Source of the DNA: the human T2T-CHM13v2.0 reference genome, Homo sapiens
Length of the DNA: 64,000 nucleotides
NCBI RefSeq assembly: GCF_009914755.1
Contig: NC_060925.1
Strand: one strand, 5' to 3'
Below the pieces are notes generated by a model that did no database searches, had not been told where the DNA came from, and was given only the letters and a program-made list of their open reading frames with translations. Numbering within the stretch: the first letter of the stretch is position 1; each line of letters starts with the position of its first letter. Shown here one piece after another: positions 18,724 through 63,502 of this stretch. A program made the position numbers and the translations under genes.

Positions 18724-19504
18724 AGTTTTCTTTATAACAGTTTCTACTATCTGAAATTATATTACACATACATATGTTTATTTCCACTCCTCCAAAAAAC
18801 ACCAGTGCCATAGAGATAGGAAACGTATGGATCACCACTGTATCCCCAGTCCCTAGATTAGTGCTTTACAAATGGTAGATTTTCAATAAATGTTTGAATG
18901 AATGAGAGAATCAACCAATAAGTCAATAAACCTGAGATATGCTACTTGCTGTCTGTAAGACATTGGGCAAAGAATTGACCCTCTCGGTGCCTCAGTTTCC
19001 TTGTTTGTAAAGTAGAGATAATAAAATAGCTACCTCATTAATGTTGGTGTAAGCATTAAGTATGATAATTATGTAAAGGGTTTAGGCCAATAACTGGTAG
19101 GTAAAAGTACTCAAAAAGTTACTTTTTGAATCATTTCATGGCAATGCATTTCTGCCTGAATCCCCGCAGCAACAGGGAACTCAGTAACTGAGTGGAGTTA
19201 GAGCGGCTACTTCATCCATCCAAGGCTCCCCAGAGCCTTCCTGCCCTGCAGGCTTCCCAGCACTGCCTCAGACTCTCTTTATCTATGCAAGACTGGGAAC
19301 CCTCGGGGGAAGAAGACAATCCAATTTCCATTATGCAGGCTAGACTCAACACAGGAGAAACGTCGTGAGCATCTGAACCTCTTTGGAGTGAGGGCTTGCT
19401 CTGAGGGCAAAAGCTATTGGAATTGGGCAAAACACAAATTTTGAGTTCAACTAGTTGAATTTCTACCTTCATTTTAGACGTGTTGCTTTTTTAGGGAAAC
19501 TTGC

Positions 19505-19650
19505 CTTTGAAGAATTCATCATCAGGTAGTAAAACATGACCAGGATCTTCAGAACAAAGATGGTTTTTTGGGGGGCTTTGTCAGATGTAGATTCTCGAAT
19601 GTTCAAGATTGAAGTCAGGATGCGAATGGCTTCTGCTTCTTGGGCTTCAT
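19505..19650 (-). CDS. ZMYND12: ZMYND12 exon 7 ((D)EAQEAEAIRILTSILNIRES...MMNSSK)
   Basis: Acceptor tgcag|AT. 146 nt. Ends at the non-canonical donor AAG|gcaagt. Lies inside ORF 19469..19717. Confidence 0.92.
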
Positions 19651-49399: not shown

Positions 49400-50200
49400 A
49401 GACAAAATGTATTCGCTAAGTCGCAAACGCTCGACATGTTACCATGGTTACAGCTGTCTCCAAAGCCAATGGAATGAGTTGTACTATCGATACGGCCGGG
49501 ACAACTCCGCCCCCGACCCGAAGGCCAATGGTGTGAGACATAATAACAGTCTCCACAAGAACCACAGTCTCTGGTTCCATTGGCGTGCGTCGTCTCTATG
49601 GTTCCCGCCGGAAGGACGCGTCTGCGTCTCTGCGGCGAGCGCGGTTGCTATGACGCCCAGGTCTCCGTAGGCACCTGCAGCTAGCAGCTGAGCGCGTAGG
49701 GGCCGAGCGACCCCGGGACGCTCGCGGCACCCTCCGCAGGAAAATTTCCGACTTGGTTCTTGAGGTTCCTGCCTCAGCCCCAAGGAGGAAAGCACCCATT
49801 CTCCCCTCTTTTCCGCATTACGGGCCTTTTCTGCTTCTCCCCAGTATGGTCCGAAACTACAGGAGGGGAACCCCTCCTGGCCCGGCCTTTCTATTCCCTG
49901 GCTGGAGTGATTCCGCCTGAAGGAGAATTCGCCCGTTTTCCCCGGACCCAGCTGCCACAAGCATTTAGTATTAGGCTGCCGCTTATTATTAGAGCGGGCT
50001 TAGAACATCCTCAGCGAGGTAGGTCGGCGTTCCTTTTCTCACTTAAAGGTGAGGTGTCGAGACGCGCCCCTGGACAGACAACGCCCGAAGGTCCAGGCCA
50101 CTACGAAGTCCACGGAGGGGCAGCTTTCCCCTACGTGTAGGCCCGCGAACAAAGAACTACCGTTTTCTGATTTTTTTTGGCCGATGTTCGTCATGCAGAA
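49400..50200 (+). promoter_or_regulatory. CCDC30: CpG-island promoter / non-coding first exon of CCDC30
   Basis: X-box GTTACCATGGTTAC 49438-49451. CCAAT at 49466 and 49525, ATTGG at 49579. GC box at 49507. Half X-box GTTGCTATGACG at 49644. Plus-strand donors GAG|gtaggt (50019) and AAG|gtgagg (50049). Gene name comes from recalled gene order, not from coding sequence in the window. Confidence 0.7.
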
Positions 50201-51475
50201 CCTTGAATCCCGATGAAGATTTGGAGGCCTTTTGTATCCTCAACATCAGAGGTCATGAAGTCAGTTACCTTCTGCCTTTCAAGCTACAACTTTTTCCACT
50301 TCTCTCATCACTCCAAGCACCAGCTTTCTCATCCTGCTTATTTCACAGCCATTTTAACTTTTCCCTGTTCACGCTGCACATTATTGAATGTCCATTTGTC
50401 TGCACCACCTCTGTCATCTATAGACCACCTCCTTCTGCTTTCCTGCTACAATGCTTTGCGTACCTAAGTATTTCGCATTCTCCAGCTCTGCAGTCATTGG
50501 GAAGATTTTCTGTTTTTCTTTGCACTATGGCAACCTTTCAGTCTTGGGTAAACTAGAGACTAGGAGAAGTGCAAATTGGTAAATATAAACATTAAATACT
50601 GTAGGTCTAGTGTGTTTTGAAAATGGAAAAAAAAATCAAAATTGCAGTATTGGACCCATTTCAGGCTTACATAATGAAAGAAGGTTGTTCCTTGTTTCAT
50701 TAAATTTTATTGATGTGTTTATCAATGTGAAAAGGGCATTCAAAGTGATCATGTAAGACAGGATTTCAACTTTAAGCCCATATGAACCCAACACTGGGGA
50801 TATGATGTAATTTTCTGGAGAGGAGATGATTGAAATAGTACTTGTGCCTTCTTTTCCTGTCAATTTCTGAATCAGAAAACATTCTTTGTGATGTAAGCCA
50901 ATAAATGAAAACAATAAGGAGTGATTGAAAATAAATATTTTTGGCAAGGGAGCAGACACAATTGTTCTAAAAAGGCTGGAACAGAGGGCCTTAAATATGG
51001 CATAAGATTAATTTAGATCCAGTGCAATTTTATTTTAGCTTGGAAAGCTTGACTTAATTTGTCTTACAATACGCATTCCTTGTTGAATCTTACTATTTCT
51101 TCTTCAGTATTCAGGTTTAAAAGTAAACCTATTTTGAGGACATACAGAACATACACATTTTAAACAGCTATTTGGGGCTACAATGATTTGGATATTTTGA
51201 TTTCTCAGTCCAATAGAAGCAGTCGTTTGTGATGTCTCATGCTTAGAGCCAGGTCAAGTTTTTAAATACTGAGAAATTCAGCTTTCTCCTCTAGAATAGA
51301 TCGGAAAACAAAAACAAGTTCTGCAGCCTTTTCAATCTTGCACATTAAATTGGAACTGGATAAAACCTAACTCTTGAAAAAAGTGTTAGATGCTATATTG
51401 TAAGGGGCTTTCCTTTCCTTTCCTCTTCTAATATGTATTTATTGAATAGCAAGGCATAAATTTAAAAACAATTTA

Positions 51476-58627: not shown

Positions 58628-59483
58628 TAGTTAGTGGCTCTAGTAACACAGATATCACTTCATCGATCAGCAGATATTTATCTTTCATATACTGTCATAC
58701 TGCAAACTGTTATGTCATGATTACTTGCAACCTAAAAAAATTGATATTGATAGCAGGCTTAGACCAAGAAGTTGCAGAAAAGAACTGAATTAATGAGAAG
58801 TCAACATAAATTATAAGACATATTCTGTGAGTAAAATAAATCCTGGATAGTATAGAATTAGGGGCCTCTCTAGCTTCCAGAGGAATCCTTTTATTTCTAA
58901 ATATGCAATAAAAGGAACAAAGACTTCTTTGGACTTTAAAAAAGAAACAAGAGCCCTTTGGGAGACTTTTCAGATAAAAGTTGCAAACTTTAGAACAGAC
59001 AGAAAAGCTTTTTTTTTTTCCATTGTACATAATTTTCATTAAGTATATCATGTCATTTGTTATTTTAGAAGATACACAGTTGTTCAAAGCTTACATTTTT
59101 CGGTATTACCAGCTGTTTCATTTAAGTGCTCATAACTAGATAACAACAGGAAAAGTAAAATATACATTGTAGAGAGTCTGACTCTAGTCATATATACATA
59201 GACTTCTTTATTCCTGCTTTCAGTTTTCCTCACATAGCAGCTTTGTATGTGTATTGCCAGCTATATTTTGTTCTTTAGAAATATCTTGGATTTTCCAAGA
59301 TATATATACATACACATACATAAGTGTGATGAAGGTTCAGGTAGCTTACTAGCTTTCTATTGCTAGTACCCTAAAGACTAGTACTCTAATAAGGAGACTA
59401 AGGTGGCACCCACATAGATATCTTGCATCCTCAGTTGTGTGTGTGTGTGTGTTCATATACATATGCTTATTTCTTCTATCAAG

Positions 59484-59606
59484 GGAAAAGTTCAGTTAGA
59501 AGACATACTTCACCATCTTGAAAAAGAAGAAATCAATCCCCTTGCTACTACAGAAGAACAACTCTGTTTGGTGCTTATTCCAGCCAGCACAGTGAAGACA
59601 GGCTGA
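59484..59606 (+). CDS. PPCS: Putative alternative last coding exon of PPCS (GKVQLEDILHHLEKEEINPLATTEEQLCLVLIPASTVKTG*)
   Basis: Phase-0 acceptor ttcttctatcaag|GGA matches the phase-0 donor of PPCS exon 2. 40 codons + TGA. ATTAAA twice, at 59723 and 59736. Confidence 0.55.
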   Translation, partial: GKVQLEDILHHLEKEEINPLATTEEQLCLVLIPASTVKTG

Positions 59607-59665
59607 GGACTGCTACCACAGATGTAGAAGAGCTTATAGTGAAGCACATGGGTGAAACAAAAGAA
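59484..59665 (+). pseudogene. Frameshifted relic coding exon (putative ancestral CCDC30 N-terminus)
   Basis: AG...GAA|gtgaga boundaries. Three frame blocks: GKVQLEDILHHLEKEEINPLATTEEQLC / WCLFQ / QHSEDRLRTATTDVEELIVKHMGETKE. CCAG tandem duplication at the second shift. Confidence 0.6.
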
Positions 59666-61723
59666 GTGAGAACTAATAGCATAGAATTTTAAAGACACCT
59701 GTGATTTTGTTCATTGCCCTTCATTAAATTGACATATTAAAAACTAATGTTTGGCTATCACTGTATAGTTTGAAAAGCACCCACGTGTAGACCTTTTTTT
59801 TTTTCTAATGAAACATGGCAACAGTCTGTGTTGGTTTCCATTAAGACTCCATGTATAGGATGTTGCCCAGTGATGACTGGCTGAACATCTAAACAGGACT
59901 GCTCCAGGTAGCTTTCATTATCTTGGTAAAGTCATCCTTCTCTCAGGAGCTGACCTTCTAGGTGACTCTTTTTTTTGAAGGCTTGGAAACTAATGTCGGC
60001 ATAGTATCAGTGGATCTGCTTCTCAAAGGTGGGCTTGTATTAACCAAAGTCATAGAGATGAGACACCTCCTTTTTAATTGACAATAAGAAATATAATTGC
60101 CAGAGGAACTAAACATGTATTTTTGGTGGCTGATGTATTCTCTTACAGGCACATTATGTGGGAAGCCAACTTTTAATTAGATGTTTACTTGGTGAACAAA
60201 TGATTCTAACTTTTTATAGCATTGGCTGAGATAGCCAGGTTTCCACAATAGGGCTATCTATATCTACCCTCGTTTCTGGACCTCATATCCTAGGACCAGG
60301 CACCTAGTGCTTAGAGGAGTAGATAAAGCTATTTTTTTTTTGGCCCTATTGTTACTCTCTTGGATGTTTCCAATACTCATCAACATACTTTCTTTAAATG
60401 AACTAATGAATTATCTCAGGTTGCCTGGGAATCACTCTGCTATGTTTTCACATCTCAGCTTCACACAGGTAACATTTTTAAATTTAATTCTTAAAGGACA
60501 ATCCAATCTCCAAATTCTAAAGAAGAATGCAGCTCCTTTAGAATGAAAAGCAGTATAGCATCATAGAGTGTGAACTTTAACATTAGGCAGATGGGGGTGA
60601 AAAGTTGCCTTTAGCATTATCTTTCTGTTTAACCCTGGGCAAGTTACTCAACTGCTTTGAGCTTGAAATTTCTGTCTGTAAGATAGAGATGTTAATAGCA
60701 TCTTCAAAGGGATTTGTGAGATTTATACAGGTTAGTGTGTATAAATTACCCATGTACTTGGCACCTAGCAAGTGTTCAATAAATGATAGCTATTATCATT
60801 AGAAATGGATATTGTTCCTGCCATTTTAAAGAGGAAACGAAAGCTTGCCAGGAAGTGATAAAGTTGAACTGTGATTCCTATGTTCCTTCTATACTATTCA
60901 TCTTTCTGTACATATTTTAAGGAGTTTTCCTATAGGCTTCCAAAGAATTCACCAAAATGCAATTCAGTTATTTCGGTAGTCTACTTCTAAGCACTTTGGC
61001 GTACTAAGAACTCAGTCTCTGGTTTCTACCCATCAGAGTATGAATTCTAGCTCCTCCCCTTATTCCCTATGTGACAAGGCAAGTCTCTTAGCCTCTCTAA
61101 GCCTGCTTCTTCACCTCCAAAGTGGGAGAATAATAGTCCCATGTGGTTGTGGAGACAATTAAATATTTGATGTACTTAATATAGTGCCTGGAGCATATTC
61201 GCTTTCTACCTGTTATTATGCACATAAAAGTAGCTTTTTGTGAAGCCGTTATATTAACTGCAAGCTTTTCAAAGAATACACAACAATTTTTAATGTAATC
61301 TCCTGTTAACATTTAATCATCTTAGCCATCAGTTTCAGCATAGCAGTATAAACCTAATTATTATGTAGATTTTTTTCTGTTCATGGATATCATGACCATA
61401 TTTCCTAAACCACAGAGAGGGAAACTTGATTTAAAACCTGGTATGTTGATAGAAAAAAATATTAGAGATTGGGACTGTCCCAGAAATTTGTGGTTACATG
61501 TCATCATACCTATGGGAAACATAGTGTATGATAATGTAAGACAGCTGGAAGGGAGTTTAGAGCCAGATGCCAACACTTGAGGAAAGCTGAGTTTTCTGTT
61601 GATTTCTCAGATTATAGTCATGATAGAATGGTGATCTCTTAATTGCTCTTTCACTTCCCGGACCTTTAATATGGATTAAAATATGAGCCATGGACTAAAA
61701 GTAAGAAAATGTGTTTTTTTTAG

Positions 61724-61847
61724 GTGGAAAATTATGCAAACTGTATTTGTAACCTAACAGAGGGAAGAGAAGCATTTTTTCATGGTTATGATGAAAAGGA
61801 AAATGAACAGCTTAGACATGAGTTTAAAGAGCTCCAACTCAAACAGA
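61724..61847 (+). pseudogene. Second relic coding exon (VENYANCICNLTEGREAFFHGYDEKENEQLRHEFKELQLKQ)
   Basis: Acceptor gtgttttttttag|GTG, phase 0. 41 open codons with a heptad/E-K-Q-rich pattern. Degenerate donor A|gttgtt. Confidence 0.6.
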
Positions 61848-63076: not shown

Positions 63077-63502
63077 TTAGGTGCTGTTATTATACTTATT
63101 ATTATATATGGTCAGTGATTATATTTACCACACATTTATTATTTTCTGTACTCAGCATTTTTCCTTGCATCTCAGATATTCCATTCGGGATCATTTTCCT
63201 TTTTTCCTTTTAGAAATTTCTTTTACAAGAGTTCGTTGATGGAAGTTTTTTTTTTTGTTTTTTTTTTTTGCCTAGGTGTAGAGAAAATTGAGTTAATTAT
63301 AGGACATATTACTGTACTGTACCCTCATTTTTTCCTTTCTTGCTTTCTACTGGGTAGACTGAATTTTCTTCTCATGATTTAAAGTTAATATTCTATTTTT
63401 GTTTGTATAATGGTTGCATTTTAAGAGTTTTCTTTAATTCTGGCTTTTTTTTTTCCCCCCTCTACAAAGCTTCTGGAAAATTTCTTCCGGCATTTCTGGT
63501 AA

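What the first reader, a model, noticed from the sequence alone, without database searches (positions are those of the whole stretch)
59484..61847. Fossil N-terminal coding exons: a half-dead CCDC30 hidden in its own 5' region
Seen: two non-repeat segments with proper acceptors (tcaag|GGA at 59484; ttttttag|GTG at 61724), and a good donor GAA|gtgaga at 59666. With two frameshifts in the first segment corrected, they join in phase 0 into one helical/coiled-coil peptide: GKVQLEDILHHLEKEEINPLATTEEQLC-WCLFQHSEDRLRTATTDVEELIVKHMGETKE|VENYANCICNLTEGREAFFHGYDEKENEQLRHEFKELQLKQ. Neither segment is in the ORF track. From memory (unverified), CCDC30 orthologues in non-mammalian vertebrates begin with a similar pattern (EQLC..W.LFQ...H..E..EV..Y...I..L.E.R.A....E.ENEQL). 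Inference: the gene lost its N-terminal part by exon pseudogenisation and kept the promoter about 10 kb upstream, so the human protein would start much further downstream.
Basis: partly seen in the sequence, partly recalled or inferred. Interest (0 to 1): 0.85.

Follow-up and report, generated by a model that had tools for sequence, protein, structure and literature searches.

The report
Decayed N-terminal coding exons of human CCDC30
Human CCDC30 still carries the broken remains of exons that code for the front of the protein in seals, and the human protein now starts further downstream at a start codon supplied by an Alu-type repeat.

Summary

A predicted fur-seal 'CCDC30-like' protein (P0064) runs in one open frame through the second half of segment 1, all of segment 2, two further coding stretches, and then the true CCDC30 exons. 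A walrus PPCS isoform reads the whole of segment 1 in one frame. Against it, human has a net 5-base loss and a 4-base duplication.

- A third fossil exon lies just past the window end (67016-67094). It has a stop and a frameshift.
- One seal coding stretch of about 64 residues has no human trace.
- The human RefSeq Select start codon lies in an antisense Alu-type exon.

Limits:
- The comparison rests on four predicted models (two pinnipeds, two bats).
- Both bats have stops inside segment 1.

This is a new example of a known kind of event, of moderate interest.

The parts
49647..50259 (+). CCDC30 first exon (non-coding, alternative donors at 50018, 50251 and 50259). This is the retained promoter-proximal exon.
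   Evidence: RefSeq transcripts listed; sequence and frames.
59484..59665 (+). It survives as an optional non-coding CCDC30 exon and as the last exon of a PPCS read-through isoform. Relative to the walrus reading it has a net 5-base loss near 59565 and a 4-base insertion at 59581-59584, which is a tandem copy of the neighbouring 4 bases.
   Evidence: Walrus P0001 residues 205-265 read the exon in one open frame. Frameshift-aware alignment. tblastn. Single copy.
61724..61847 (+). The frame is still open (41 codons plus 1 base). The AG acceptor is kept and the donor is very weak. It is in no RefSeq transcript.

Three further parts of the same feature lie beyond the window end and cannot be listed as rows. 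Numbering is continued, chr1 position = 42284000 + coordinate, and the sequence was read from locus L002.
- 66823-66928 (+): Alu-type antisense exon holding the RefSeq Select start codon at 66914.
- 67016-67094 (+): third fossil exon, with a TAA stop, a 3-codon gap and a net 2-base loss.
- 69025-69178 (+): first coding exon shared by human and fur seal.
   Evidence: **Segment 2**
-.
- P0064 residues 70-109 match it with 27 of 41 identical, E 8e-9.
- Genome-wide E 5.5e-4.
- Donor count 2 of 7. Single copy.

**Parts beyond the window**
- Coding start and exons; repeat mask; sequence.
- 24 other matches of the repeat in 70 kb.
- Minus-strand match to the signal-recognition-particle RNA model, E 6.5e-5, below the gathering score.
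- Third fossil exon: 19 of 27 identical to P0064 residues 174-200.
- Shared exon: 35 of 54 identical, E 2e-15.

Best explanation
Segments 59484-59665 and 61724-61847, together with a third piece at 67016-67094 just past the window end, are decayed former coding exons of CCDC30.

**Ancestral state (inferred).** In an ancestor shared with carnivores and bats, these exons coded for roughly 190-200 residues of helical protein in front of today's first conserved coding exon (69025-69178). They did so together with one stretch that human no longer shows.

**What happened in the human lineage (lesions shown).**
- Segment 1 took two frame-shifting indels.
- The third exon took a stop and a frameshift.
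- Segment 2 kept its frame but has a very poor donor and is not spliced into any listed transcript.

**What the pieces do now.**
- The promoter exon was kept.
- Segment 1 survives only as an optional untranslated exon and as the acceptor for PPCS read-through transcripts.
- Translation of the main human transcript starts at an ATG inside an antisense Alu-type exon, five codons before the first conserved exon.

**Shown versus inferred.** The homology, the lesions, the annotation and the repeat origin of the start exon are shown. That the ancestor translated these exons, and when the loss happened, is inferred.
For: 1. Fur-seal 'CCDC30-like' P0064 (found, sequence) has one open frame. Residues 44-69 match segment 1's last frame piece. 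Residues 70-109 match segment 2. Residues 174-200 match 67013-67084. Residues 202-255 match exon 69025-69178.
2. Genome-wide, all 6 matches of P0064 lie in the CCDC30 locus. They include exons 83456-83571 and 85176-85274.
3. Walrus PPCS isoform X2 (P0001) reads the whole of segment 1 as 61 open codons. The frameshift-aware alignment places human's net 5-base loss and 4-base insertion.
4. About 160 codons upstream of the shared exon are open in the seal and in frame with the main coding sequence. By my arithmetic, (61/64)^160 is about 5e-4 for a chance open frame.
5. Splice sites flank all three human pieces. The pieces are single copy and not in repeats.
6. The human Select coding start at 66914 lies in a masked, 7SL-related, minus-strand repeat.
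7. A single-sequence structure model of P0064 puts residues 46-122 in one long helix with block pLDDT of about 67-88. This fits the coiled-coil character of the rest of the protein.
Against: - All comparison proteins are automatic gene models, not sequenced proteins.
- The seal model does not use the first half of segment 1. It starts from a low-confidence 43-residue first exon (pLDDT 32-50) that maps to human intron 1 (50451-50555).
- Two bat PPCS isoforms (P0004, P0006) stop inside segment 1 at two different codons. So the first half of segment 1 is not kept open across mammals.
- The walrus's 33 or so extra open codons could be chance. By my arithmetic the probability is about 0.2.
- Seal residues 110-173 have no human counterpart. 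The best frameshift-aware score was 32, against 33.3 +/- 3.1 for 40 shuffles. That stretch could be a carnivore addition.
- Identity in the fossil pieces (58-70%) is no lower than in the true shared exon (65%). Relaxed constraint in human is therefore not visible at this depth.
- No DNA of other species was available, so there is no dN/dS and no dating.
- Non-mammalian CCDC30 was never seen.
- The search with the segment 2 frame alone found nothing. The length filter explains that result.
Confidence: 0.8

Rival explanations
1. The exons are old but have always been 5' untranslated exons in mammals. The open frame in the two pinniped models is an artefact of gene prediction stretching the reading frame upstream as far as it stays open.
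For: - The seal model needs a doubtful first exon.
- Two bats have stops in segment 1.
- Identity in the pieces is about what DNA-level conservation of a transcribed exon could give.
- No experimental protein evidence was seen.
Against: - About 160 codons across at least four exons are open and in frame with the main coding sequence in the seal. By my arithmetic this has a chance of about 5e-4.
- The human counterparts carry one stop and three frameshifting indels in about 385 bases. So such a frame does not stay open without selection.
- The encoded sequence is helical like the rest of the protein.
Confidence: 0.12
2. The coding use of these exons is a gain in the carnivore or pinniped lineage. 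Untranslated exons became coding there, and human simply shows the ancestral non-coding state.
For: - Only pinniped models show the open frame.
- Seal residues 110-173 are absent from human.
Against: - Gaining a 160-codon in-frame extension across several exons is far less likely than losing one.
- Human's differences are indels and a stop inside otherwise well-matching sequence. That is the signature of decay.
Confidence: 0.05
3. Segment 1 is only what RefSeq says it is, an alternative last exon of PPCS. Segment 2 is a chance open frame with no past as an exon.
For: - PPCS NM_001287511.2 codes through 59484-59606.
- PPCS-CCDC30 chimeric RNA is reported in normal and tumour tissue (passages of PMC4824105 and PMC6463592).
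- A 41-codon open frame alone is common.
Against: - Segment 2 matches residues 70-109 of a protein that continues into true CCDC30 exons, and the junction to segment 1 is exact.
- Segment 1 is also an exon of CCDC30 NM_001355224.2.
Confidence: 0.03

Closest known systems
Lineage-specific loss of coding exons in a gene that stays active (exon-level pseudogenisation); the category is recalled general knowledge and comes from no call
   Same: Exons sit in the expected place with splice sites, align to an orthologue's coding sequence, and carry frameshifts and a stop. The rest of the gene keeps a long open frame.
   Different: - The loss removes the whole N-terminal end, including the old start.
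- One dead exon lives on as an untranslated exon and as the tail of a neighbouring gene's isoform.
- The timing and the lineages affected are not established.
Alu exonisation supplying a new 5' coding exon (known phenomenon, recalled; I read no paper on it)
   Same: The exon with the Select start codon lies in a masked, 7SL-related repeat on the opposite strand. It has a pyrimidine-rich acceptor and a strong donor.
   Different: The repeat contributes only five codons. It appears to act as a replacement start for a gene whose own front end decayed. The order of the two events is unknown.
PPCS-CCDC30 read-through (chimeric) RNA and PPCS isoform NM_001287511.2
   Same: The same exon, 59484-59665, is the acceptor. 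The chimera is listed in the passages of PMC4824105 and PMC6463592 that I read and in RefSeq. Predicted models make the same PPCS splice in walrus and two bats.
   Different: Those sources treat it as a fusion or an isoform. None that I saw notes that the tail is the old CCDC30 reading frame. None notes that the human isoform's stop at 59604-59606 follows from the human 5-base loss.
Xenopus Ccdc30, a basal-body-associated protein needed for centriole amplification in multiciliated cells (bioRxiv 10.1101/2025.05.20.655211; passages read)
   Same: It is the same gene family by name. The two morpholino sequences in the paper's methods imply that the frog's first coding exon holds the start codon plus two codons and ends in phase 0. 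That phase is the one in which segment 1 begins.
   Different: I never saw the frog protein sequence. Whether it aligns to the human fossil exons is unknown.

Membership tests
Decayed coding exon of CCDC30 | Lies on the gene's strand between its first exon and its first conserved coding exon, in the same order as in the orthologue | tested here: met
   P0064 pieces hit 59588-59665, 61724-61846, 67013-67084 and 69016-69177, in that order, on the + strand. Annotation.
Decayed coding exon of CCDC30 | Significant protein-level similarity to the coding sequence of an orthologue that continues into undisputed CCDC30 exons | tested here: met
   E 8e-9, 4e-4 and 7e-5 in 70 kb. All 6 genome-wide matches lie in the locus, including three undisputed exons.
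Decayed coding exon of CCDC30 | Disabling lesions in human relative to the open orthologous frame | tested here: met
   - Segment 1 has a net 5-base loss and a 4-base insertion.
- The exon at 67016-67094 has a TAA stop and a net 2-base loss.
- Segment 2 has no frame lesion, only a donor matching 2 of 7 consensus positions.
Decayed coding exon of CCDC30 | Not part of any human coding sequence of the gene | tested here: met
   None of the 10 CCDC30 transcripts codes upstream of 66914. Segment 2 and 67016-67094 are in none of the 19 transcripts listed.
Decayed coding exon of CCDC30 | Coding in outgroups (marsupials, birds, reptiles, amphibians, fish) | not testable with these tools
   The three protein searches could not reach full-length orthologues because of the length filter. 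No vertebrate DNA collection is on hand.
Decayed coding exon of CCDC30 | Codon-level purifying selection where the frame is kept, and relaxed selection in human | not testable with these tools
   No DNA of other species. Amino-acid identity of the fossil pieces (58-70%) is like that of the true exon (65%) and does not discriminate.
Alu-type exonisation | Exon lies inside a high-copy, 7SL-derived repeat in antisense orientation | tested here: met
   - The masked repeat 66757-66951 contains exon 66823-66928.
- It has 24 other matches in 70 kb at 73-79% identity.
- It has a minus-strand match to the Metazoa_SRP model, E 6.5e-5, 25.9 bits against a gathering score of 70.
- The subfamily was not determined.
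Alu-type exonisation | The repeat-derived exon is used in mature mRNA and holds the start codon | tested here: met
   By annotation only. The exon is in 10 of the 11 CCDC30 transcripts listed, and the coding start at 66914 is used in 7 of them, including the Select one. I saw no RNA or protein data.

The most novel reading that the evidence does not exclude
Human CCDC30 lost its front end and gained a replacement start.
- At least three, probably four or more, ancestral N-terminal coding exons (about 190-200 residues) died in the lineage to humans.
- An antisense Alu-type element then supplied, or had already supplied, the spliced-in exon and start codon that keep the remaining open frame of about 930 codons translated.
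- Different stops in two bat families hint that mammals shed this N-terminal module repeatedly.
- If so, the human protein may lack a part that the frog protein uses at basal bodies.
Probability: 0.4. Interest if true: 0.6.

Novelty: new member of a known kind. Interest (0 to 1): 0.45.

Why it matters
- **Annotation.** Two of the three fossil exons are unannotated. The origin of the human start codon in a repeat is not stated in the annotation I was given.
- **Transfer of function between species.** Frog Ccdc30 is reported to be needed for centriole amplification and to form a ring at basal bodies (passages read). If the frog or seal protein carries about 200 N-terminal residues that human lacks, results from model organisms may not transfer directly. 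Human variants in this 5' region should then be read as non-coding.
- **The PPCS isoform.** The odd C-terminal tail of PPCS isoform NM_001287511.2 is explained. It is the first 28 residues of the old CCDC30 frame, followed by 12 out-of-frame residues and a stop created by the human 5-base loss.
- **A case for study.** It offers a clean, datable example of exon decay coupled to a repeat-derived start.

Tried and rejected
**Searches that led nowhere**
- Pfam scan of the three human pieces: nothing above noise (best E 0.081, Ca_hom_mod).
- Pfam scan of P0064: nothing above noise (best E 0.031).
- Protein search with the 56-residue open frame over segment 2: no candidate. This is a consequence of the length filter, not evidence of absence.
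- Atlas search with segment 2: best score 0.79, unnamed clusters, uninformative.
- Atlas search with P0064 residues 44-203: only generic vertebrate coiled-coil fragments at 0.95-0.96. A 'CCD30' fragment cluster came at rank 12. This is a lead only.
- PDB sequence search with P0064: nothing (best E 0.26).
- Search for a human counterpart of seal residues 110-173 by tblastn and by my own frameshift-aware alignment over 61848-67012: no signal above 40 shuffles.

**Ideas considered and dropped**
- Direct splicing of segment 2 to 67016 or to 69025 does not fit, because the phases do not match.
- Segment 2 plus the annotated 29-base exon 63470-63498 would enter 69025 in frame and stay open. The 29-base exon shows no likeness to the seal protein, so I treat this as coincidence.
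- An ATG in exon 1 that is in frame with donor 50251 and with segment 1 could be an old start. I could not test it.

**Literature**
- Three searches found no paper on these fossil exons or on a repeat-derived CCDC30 start.
- Supplementary tables of PMC4824105 and of the Xenopus preprint were closed. They may hold junction coordinates or protein identifiers that bear on this.

**Coverage of the PPCS search**
- Of the 63 hits, I read 41.
- The 22 unread were four fish and otherwise fungal or protist entries.
- 3 of the 41 had a tail resembling segment 1.

Full report
**What is in the sequence**

- The stretch 59484-59665 begins after a pyrimidine-rich tract ending in AG and ends before GTGAGA.
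- The stretch 61724-61847 follows a run of T and an AG. It is open for 41 codons plus one base.
- Both stretches are outside masked repeats and are single copy in the reference genome.
- Segment 1 is not unknown. RefSeq has it as a non-coding exon of CCDC30 NM_001355224.2, and as the last exon of PPCS NM_001287511.2, coding to 59606.
- Segment 2 is in none of the 19 transcripts listed.

**How I reached comparison proteins**

- No vertebrate DNA collection was on hand. The protein search admits only proteins of 0.55-1.75 times the query length.
- The open frame over segment 2 alone found nothing.
- I then searched with PPCS exon 1, because PPCS isoforms that end in segment 1 would fall in the permitted length range (63 hits).
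- I read 41 of the 63 hits. Three carried a tail resembling segment 1:
  - walrus P0001 (273 residues);
  - the bat Glossophaga, P0004;
  - the bat Hipposideros, P0006.
- The last search used P0001 with the region set to residues 205-265. It returned one further protein, P0064, a 353-residue 'coiled-coil domain-containing protein 30-like' of the northern fur seal.

**What the comparison shows**

P0064 maps to the human locus piece by piece. Coordinates above 64000 continue the window numbering into locus L002 (chr1 position = 42284000 + coordinate).

| P0064 residues | Human position | Result |
|---|---|---|
| 1-35 | 50451-50555, in intron 1 | matches |
| 44-69 | last frame piece of segment 1 | 15 of 26 identical, by my count |
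| 70-109 | segment 2 | 27 of 41 identical, E 8e-9 in 70 kb |
| 110-173 | none | no match |
| 174-200 | 67013-67084 | 19 of 27 identical |
| 202-255 | exon 69025-69178 | 35 of 54 identical |
| 280-352 | exons 83456-83571 and 85176-85274 | matches |

- All 6 genome-wide matches lie in the CCDC30 locus. P0064 is therefore an orthologue and not a paralogue.
- Walrus P0001 reads the whole of segment 1 as 61 open codons and then runs into the intron, as the human sequence would.
- Against the walrus, human has a net loss of 5 bases near 59565 and a 4-base insertion at 59581-59584. The insertion is a tandem copy of the adjacent four bases (bases read). The two changes sum to the observed 182 bases against 183.

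- *A third fossil exon.* It lies at 67016-67094, about 3 kb past the window end (locus L002). It has AG and GT in place. Relative to the seal it has a TAA stop, a three-codon gap, and a net 2-base loss in a run of A.
- *A missing stretch.* Seal residues 110-173 have no detectable human counterpart between segment 2 and that exon. The best frameshift-aware score was 32, against 33.3 +/- 3.1 for 40 shuffles. The stretch was either deleted in the human lineage or added in carnivores.
- *The phase of segment 2.* It ends in phase 1. Its donor matches 2 of 7 consensus positions, fewer than any of the 20 annotated donors in the 70 kb. The consensus used is recalled textbook knowledge.
- *The origin of the human start codon.* The RefSeq Select transcript starts coding at 66914, in exon 66823-66928.
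  - This exon lies inside masked repeat 66757-66951.
  - The repeat has 24 other matches in the 70 kb.
  - It has a minus-strand match to the signal-recognition-particle RNA model, E 6.5e-5, below the gathering score.
  - It is therefore an Alu-type element antisense to the gene. It contributes five codons before the first conserved exon.

**Best explanation**

- These are former coding exons of CCDC30 that decayed in the lineage to humans.
- The main argument is the seal frame. About 160 codons upstream of the shared exon are open and in phase with the rest of the protein. By my arithmetic with uniform codons, that has a chance of about 5e-4.
- By contrast, the human counterparts carry one stop and three frameshifting indels in about 385 bases.
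- A single-sequence structure model puts seal residues 46-122 in one long helix of moderate to good confidence. It gives the first 43 residues low confidence. This fits a coiled-coil extension preceded by a doubtful predicted first exon.
- A rough estimate, using recalled neutral rates and not any tool result: full neutrality since the human-carnivore split would have left about twice as many disabling lesions as are seen. So the loss may be younger than that split. This needs alignments to test.

**Evidence against, and limits**

- Every comparison protein is an automatic model.
- The seal model skips the first half of segment 1.
- The two bats have stops inside segment 1 at different codons. 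The first half of that exon is therefore not kept open across mammals, and the walrus's open first half could be chance.
- The fossil pieces are as similar to the seal as the true exon is. No relaxation of constraint can be read from identity alone.
  - The only related fact I found comes from the Xenopus preprint's two morpholino sequences.
  - They imply a first coding exon of a start codon plus two codons, ending in phase 0. That is the phase in which segment 1 begins. This is weak, indirect support.

**What is known**

- PPCS-CCDC30 chimeric RNA is listed in the passages of PMC4824105 and PMC6463592 that I read.
- A DUX4-bound LTR first exon of CCDC30 is mentioned in PMC12057663 (passage).
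- Xenopus Ccdc30 is reported as a basal-body ring protein needed for centriole amplification (passages).
- Three literature searches found nothing on these fossil exons or on the repeat-derived start.

**Verdict**

- The event is a new example of known processes: exon decay, and repeat exonisation giving a start codon.
- Interest is moderate. It matters mainly for annotation and for comparing human CCDC30 with model organisms.

Noticed in passing
window 50451-50606 (+): An ATG-initiated open frame in CCDC30 intron 1, about 190 bases past the exon 1 donor. Its first 35 residues match residues 1-35 of the fur-seal model, with 23 of 35 identical. The open frame is 52 residues. It could be an unannotated alternative first exon or just conserved promoter-proximal DNA.
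   Followed up: partly
L002 2823-2928 (= continued window numbering 66823-66928): The exon holding the RefSeq Select start codon of CCDC30 is derived from an antisense Alu-type repeat. The same stretch also gives a plus-strand match to the mir-3135 precursor model, below its gathering score (44.9 against 80 bits).
   Followed up: partly
window 63470-63498 (+): An annotated 29-base exon (NM_001395384.1). Segment 2 plus this exon would enter exon 69025 in frame with no stop. It has no likeness to the seal protein, so this is probably coincidence.
   Followed up: partly
window about 59436-59452: A short TG dinucleotide run about 30 bases upstream of the segment 1 acceptor.
   Followed up: no
window 59484-59606 (+): The C-terminal tail of PPCS isoform NM_001287511.2 is the old CCDC30 frame for 28 residues. 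It is then out of frame for 12 residues because of the human 5-base loss, which brings in the stop. The same PPCS-to-segment-1 splice is predicted in walrus and two bats.
   Followed up: yes
G000:C6:137608325-137608538 (-): Two adjacent matches to PPCS residues 20-54 and 178-207 on chromosome 6. They look like a processed PPCS pseudogene fragment.
   Followed up: no
window 19499-19507 (- strand; donor of ZMYND12 exon 19505-19650): This exon appears to use a GC rather than a GT donor, in an otherwise perfect consensus context.
   Followed up: no
window 50213-50251 (+): An ATG in CCDC30 exon 1 opens a 13-codon frame that ends in phase 0 at the alternative donor 50251. It would therefore read straight into segment 1's original frame. 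It is a candidate for the old start codon, but I could not test it.
   Followed up: no
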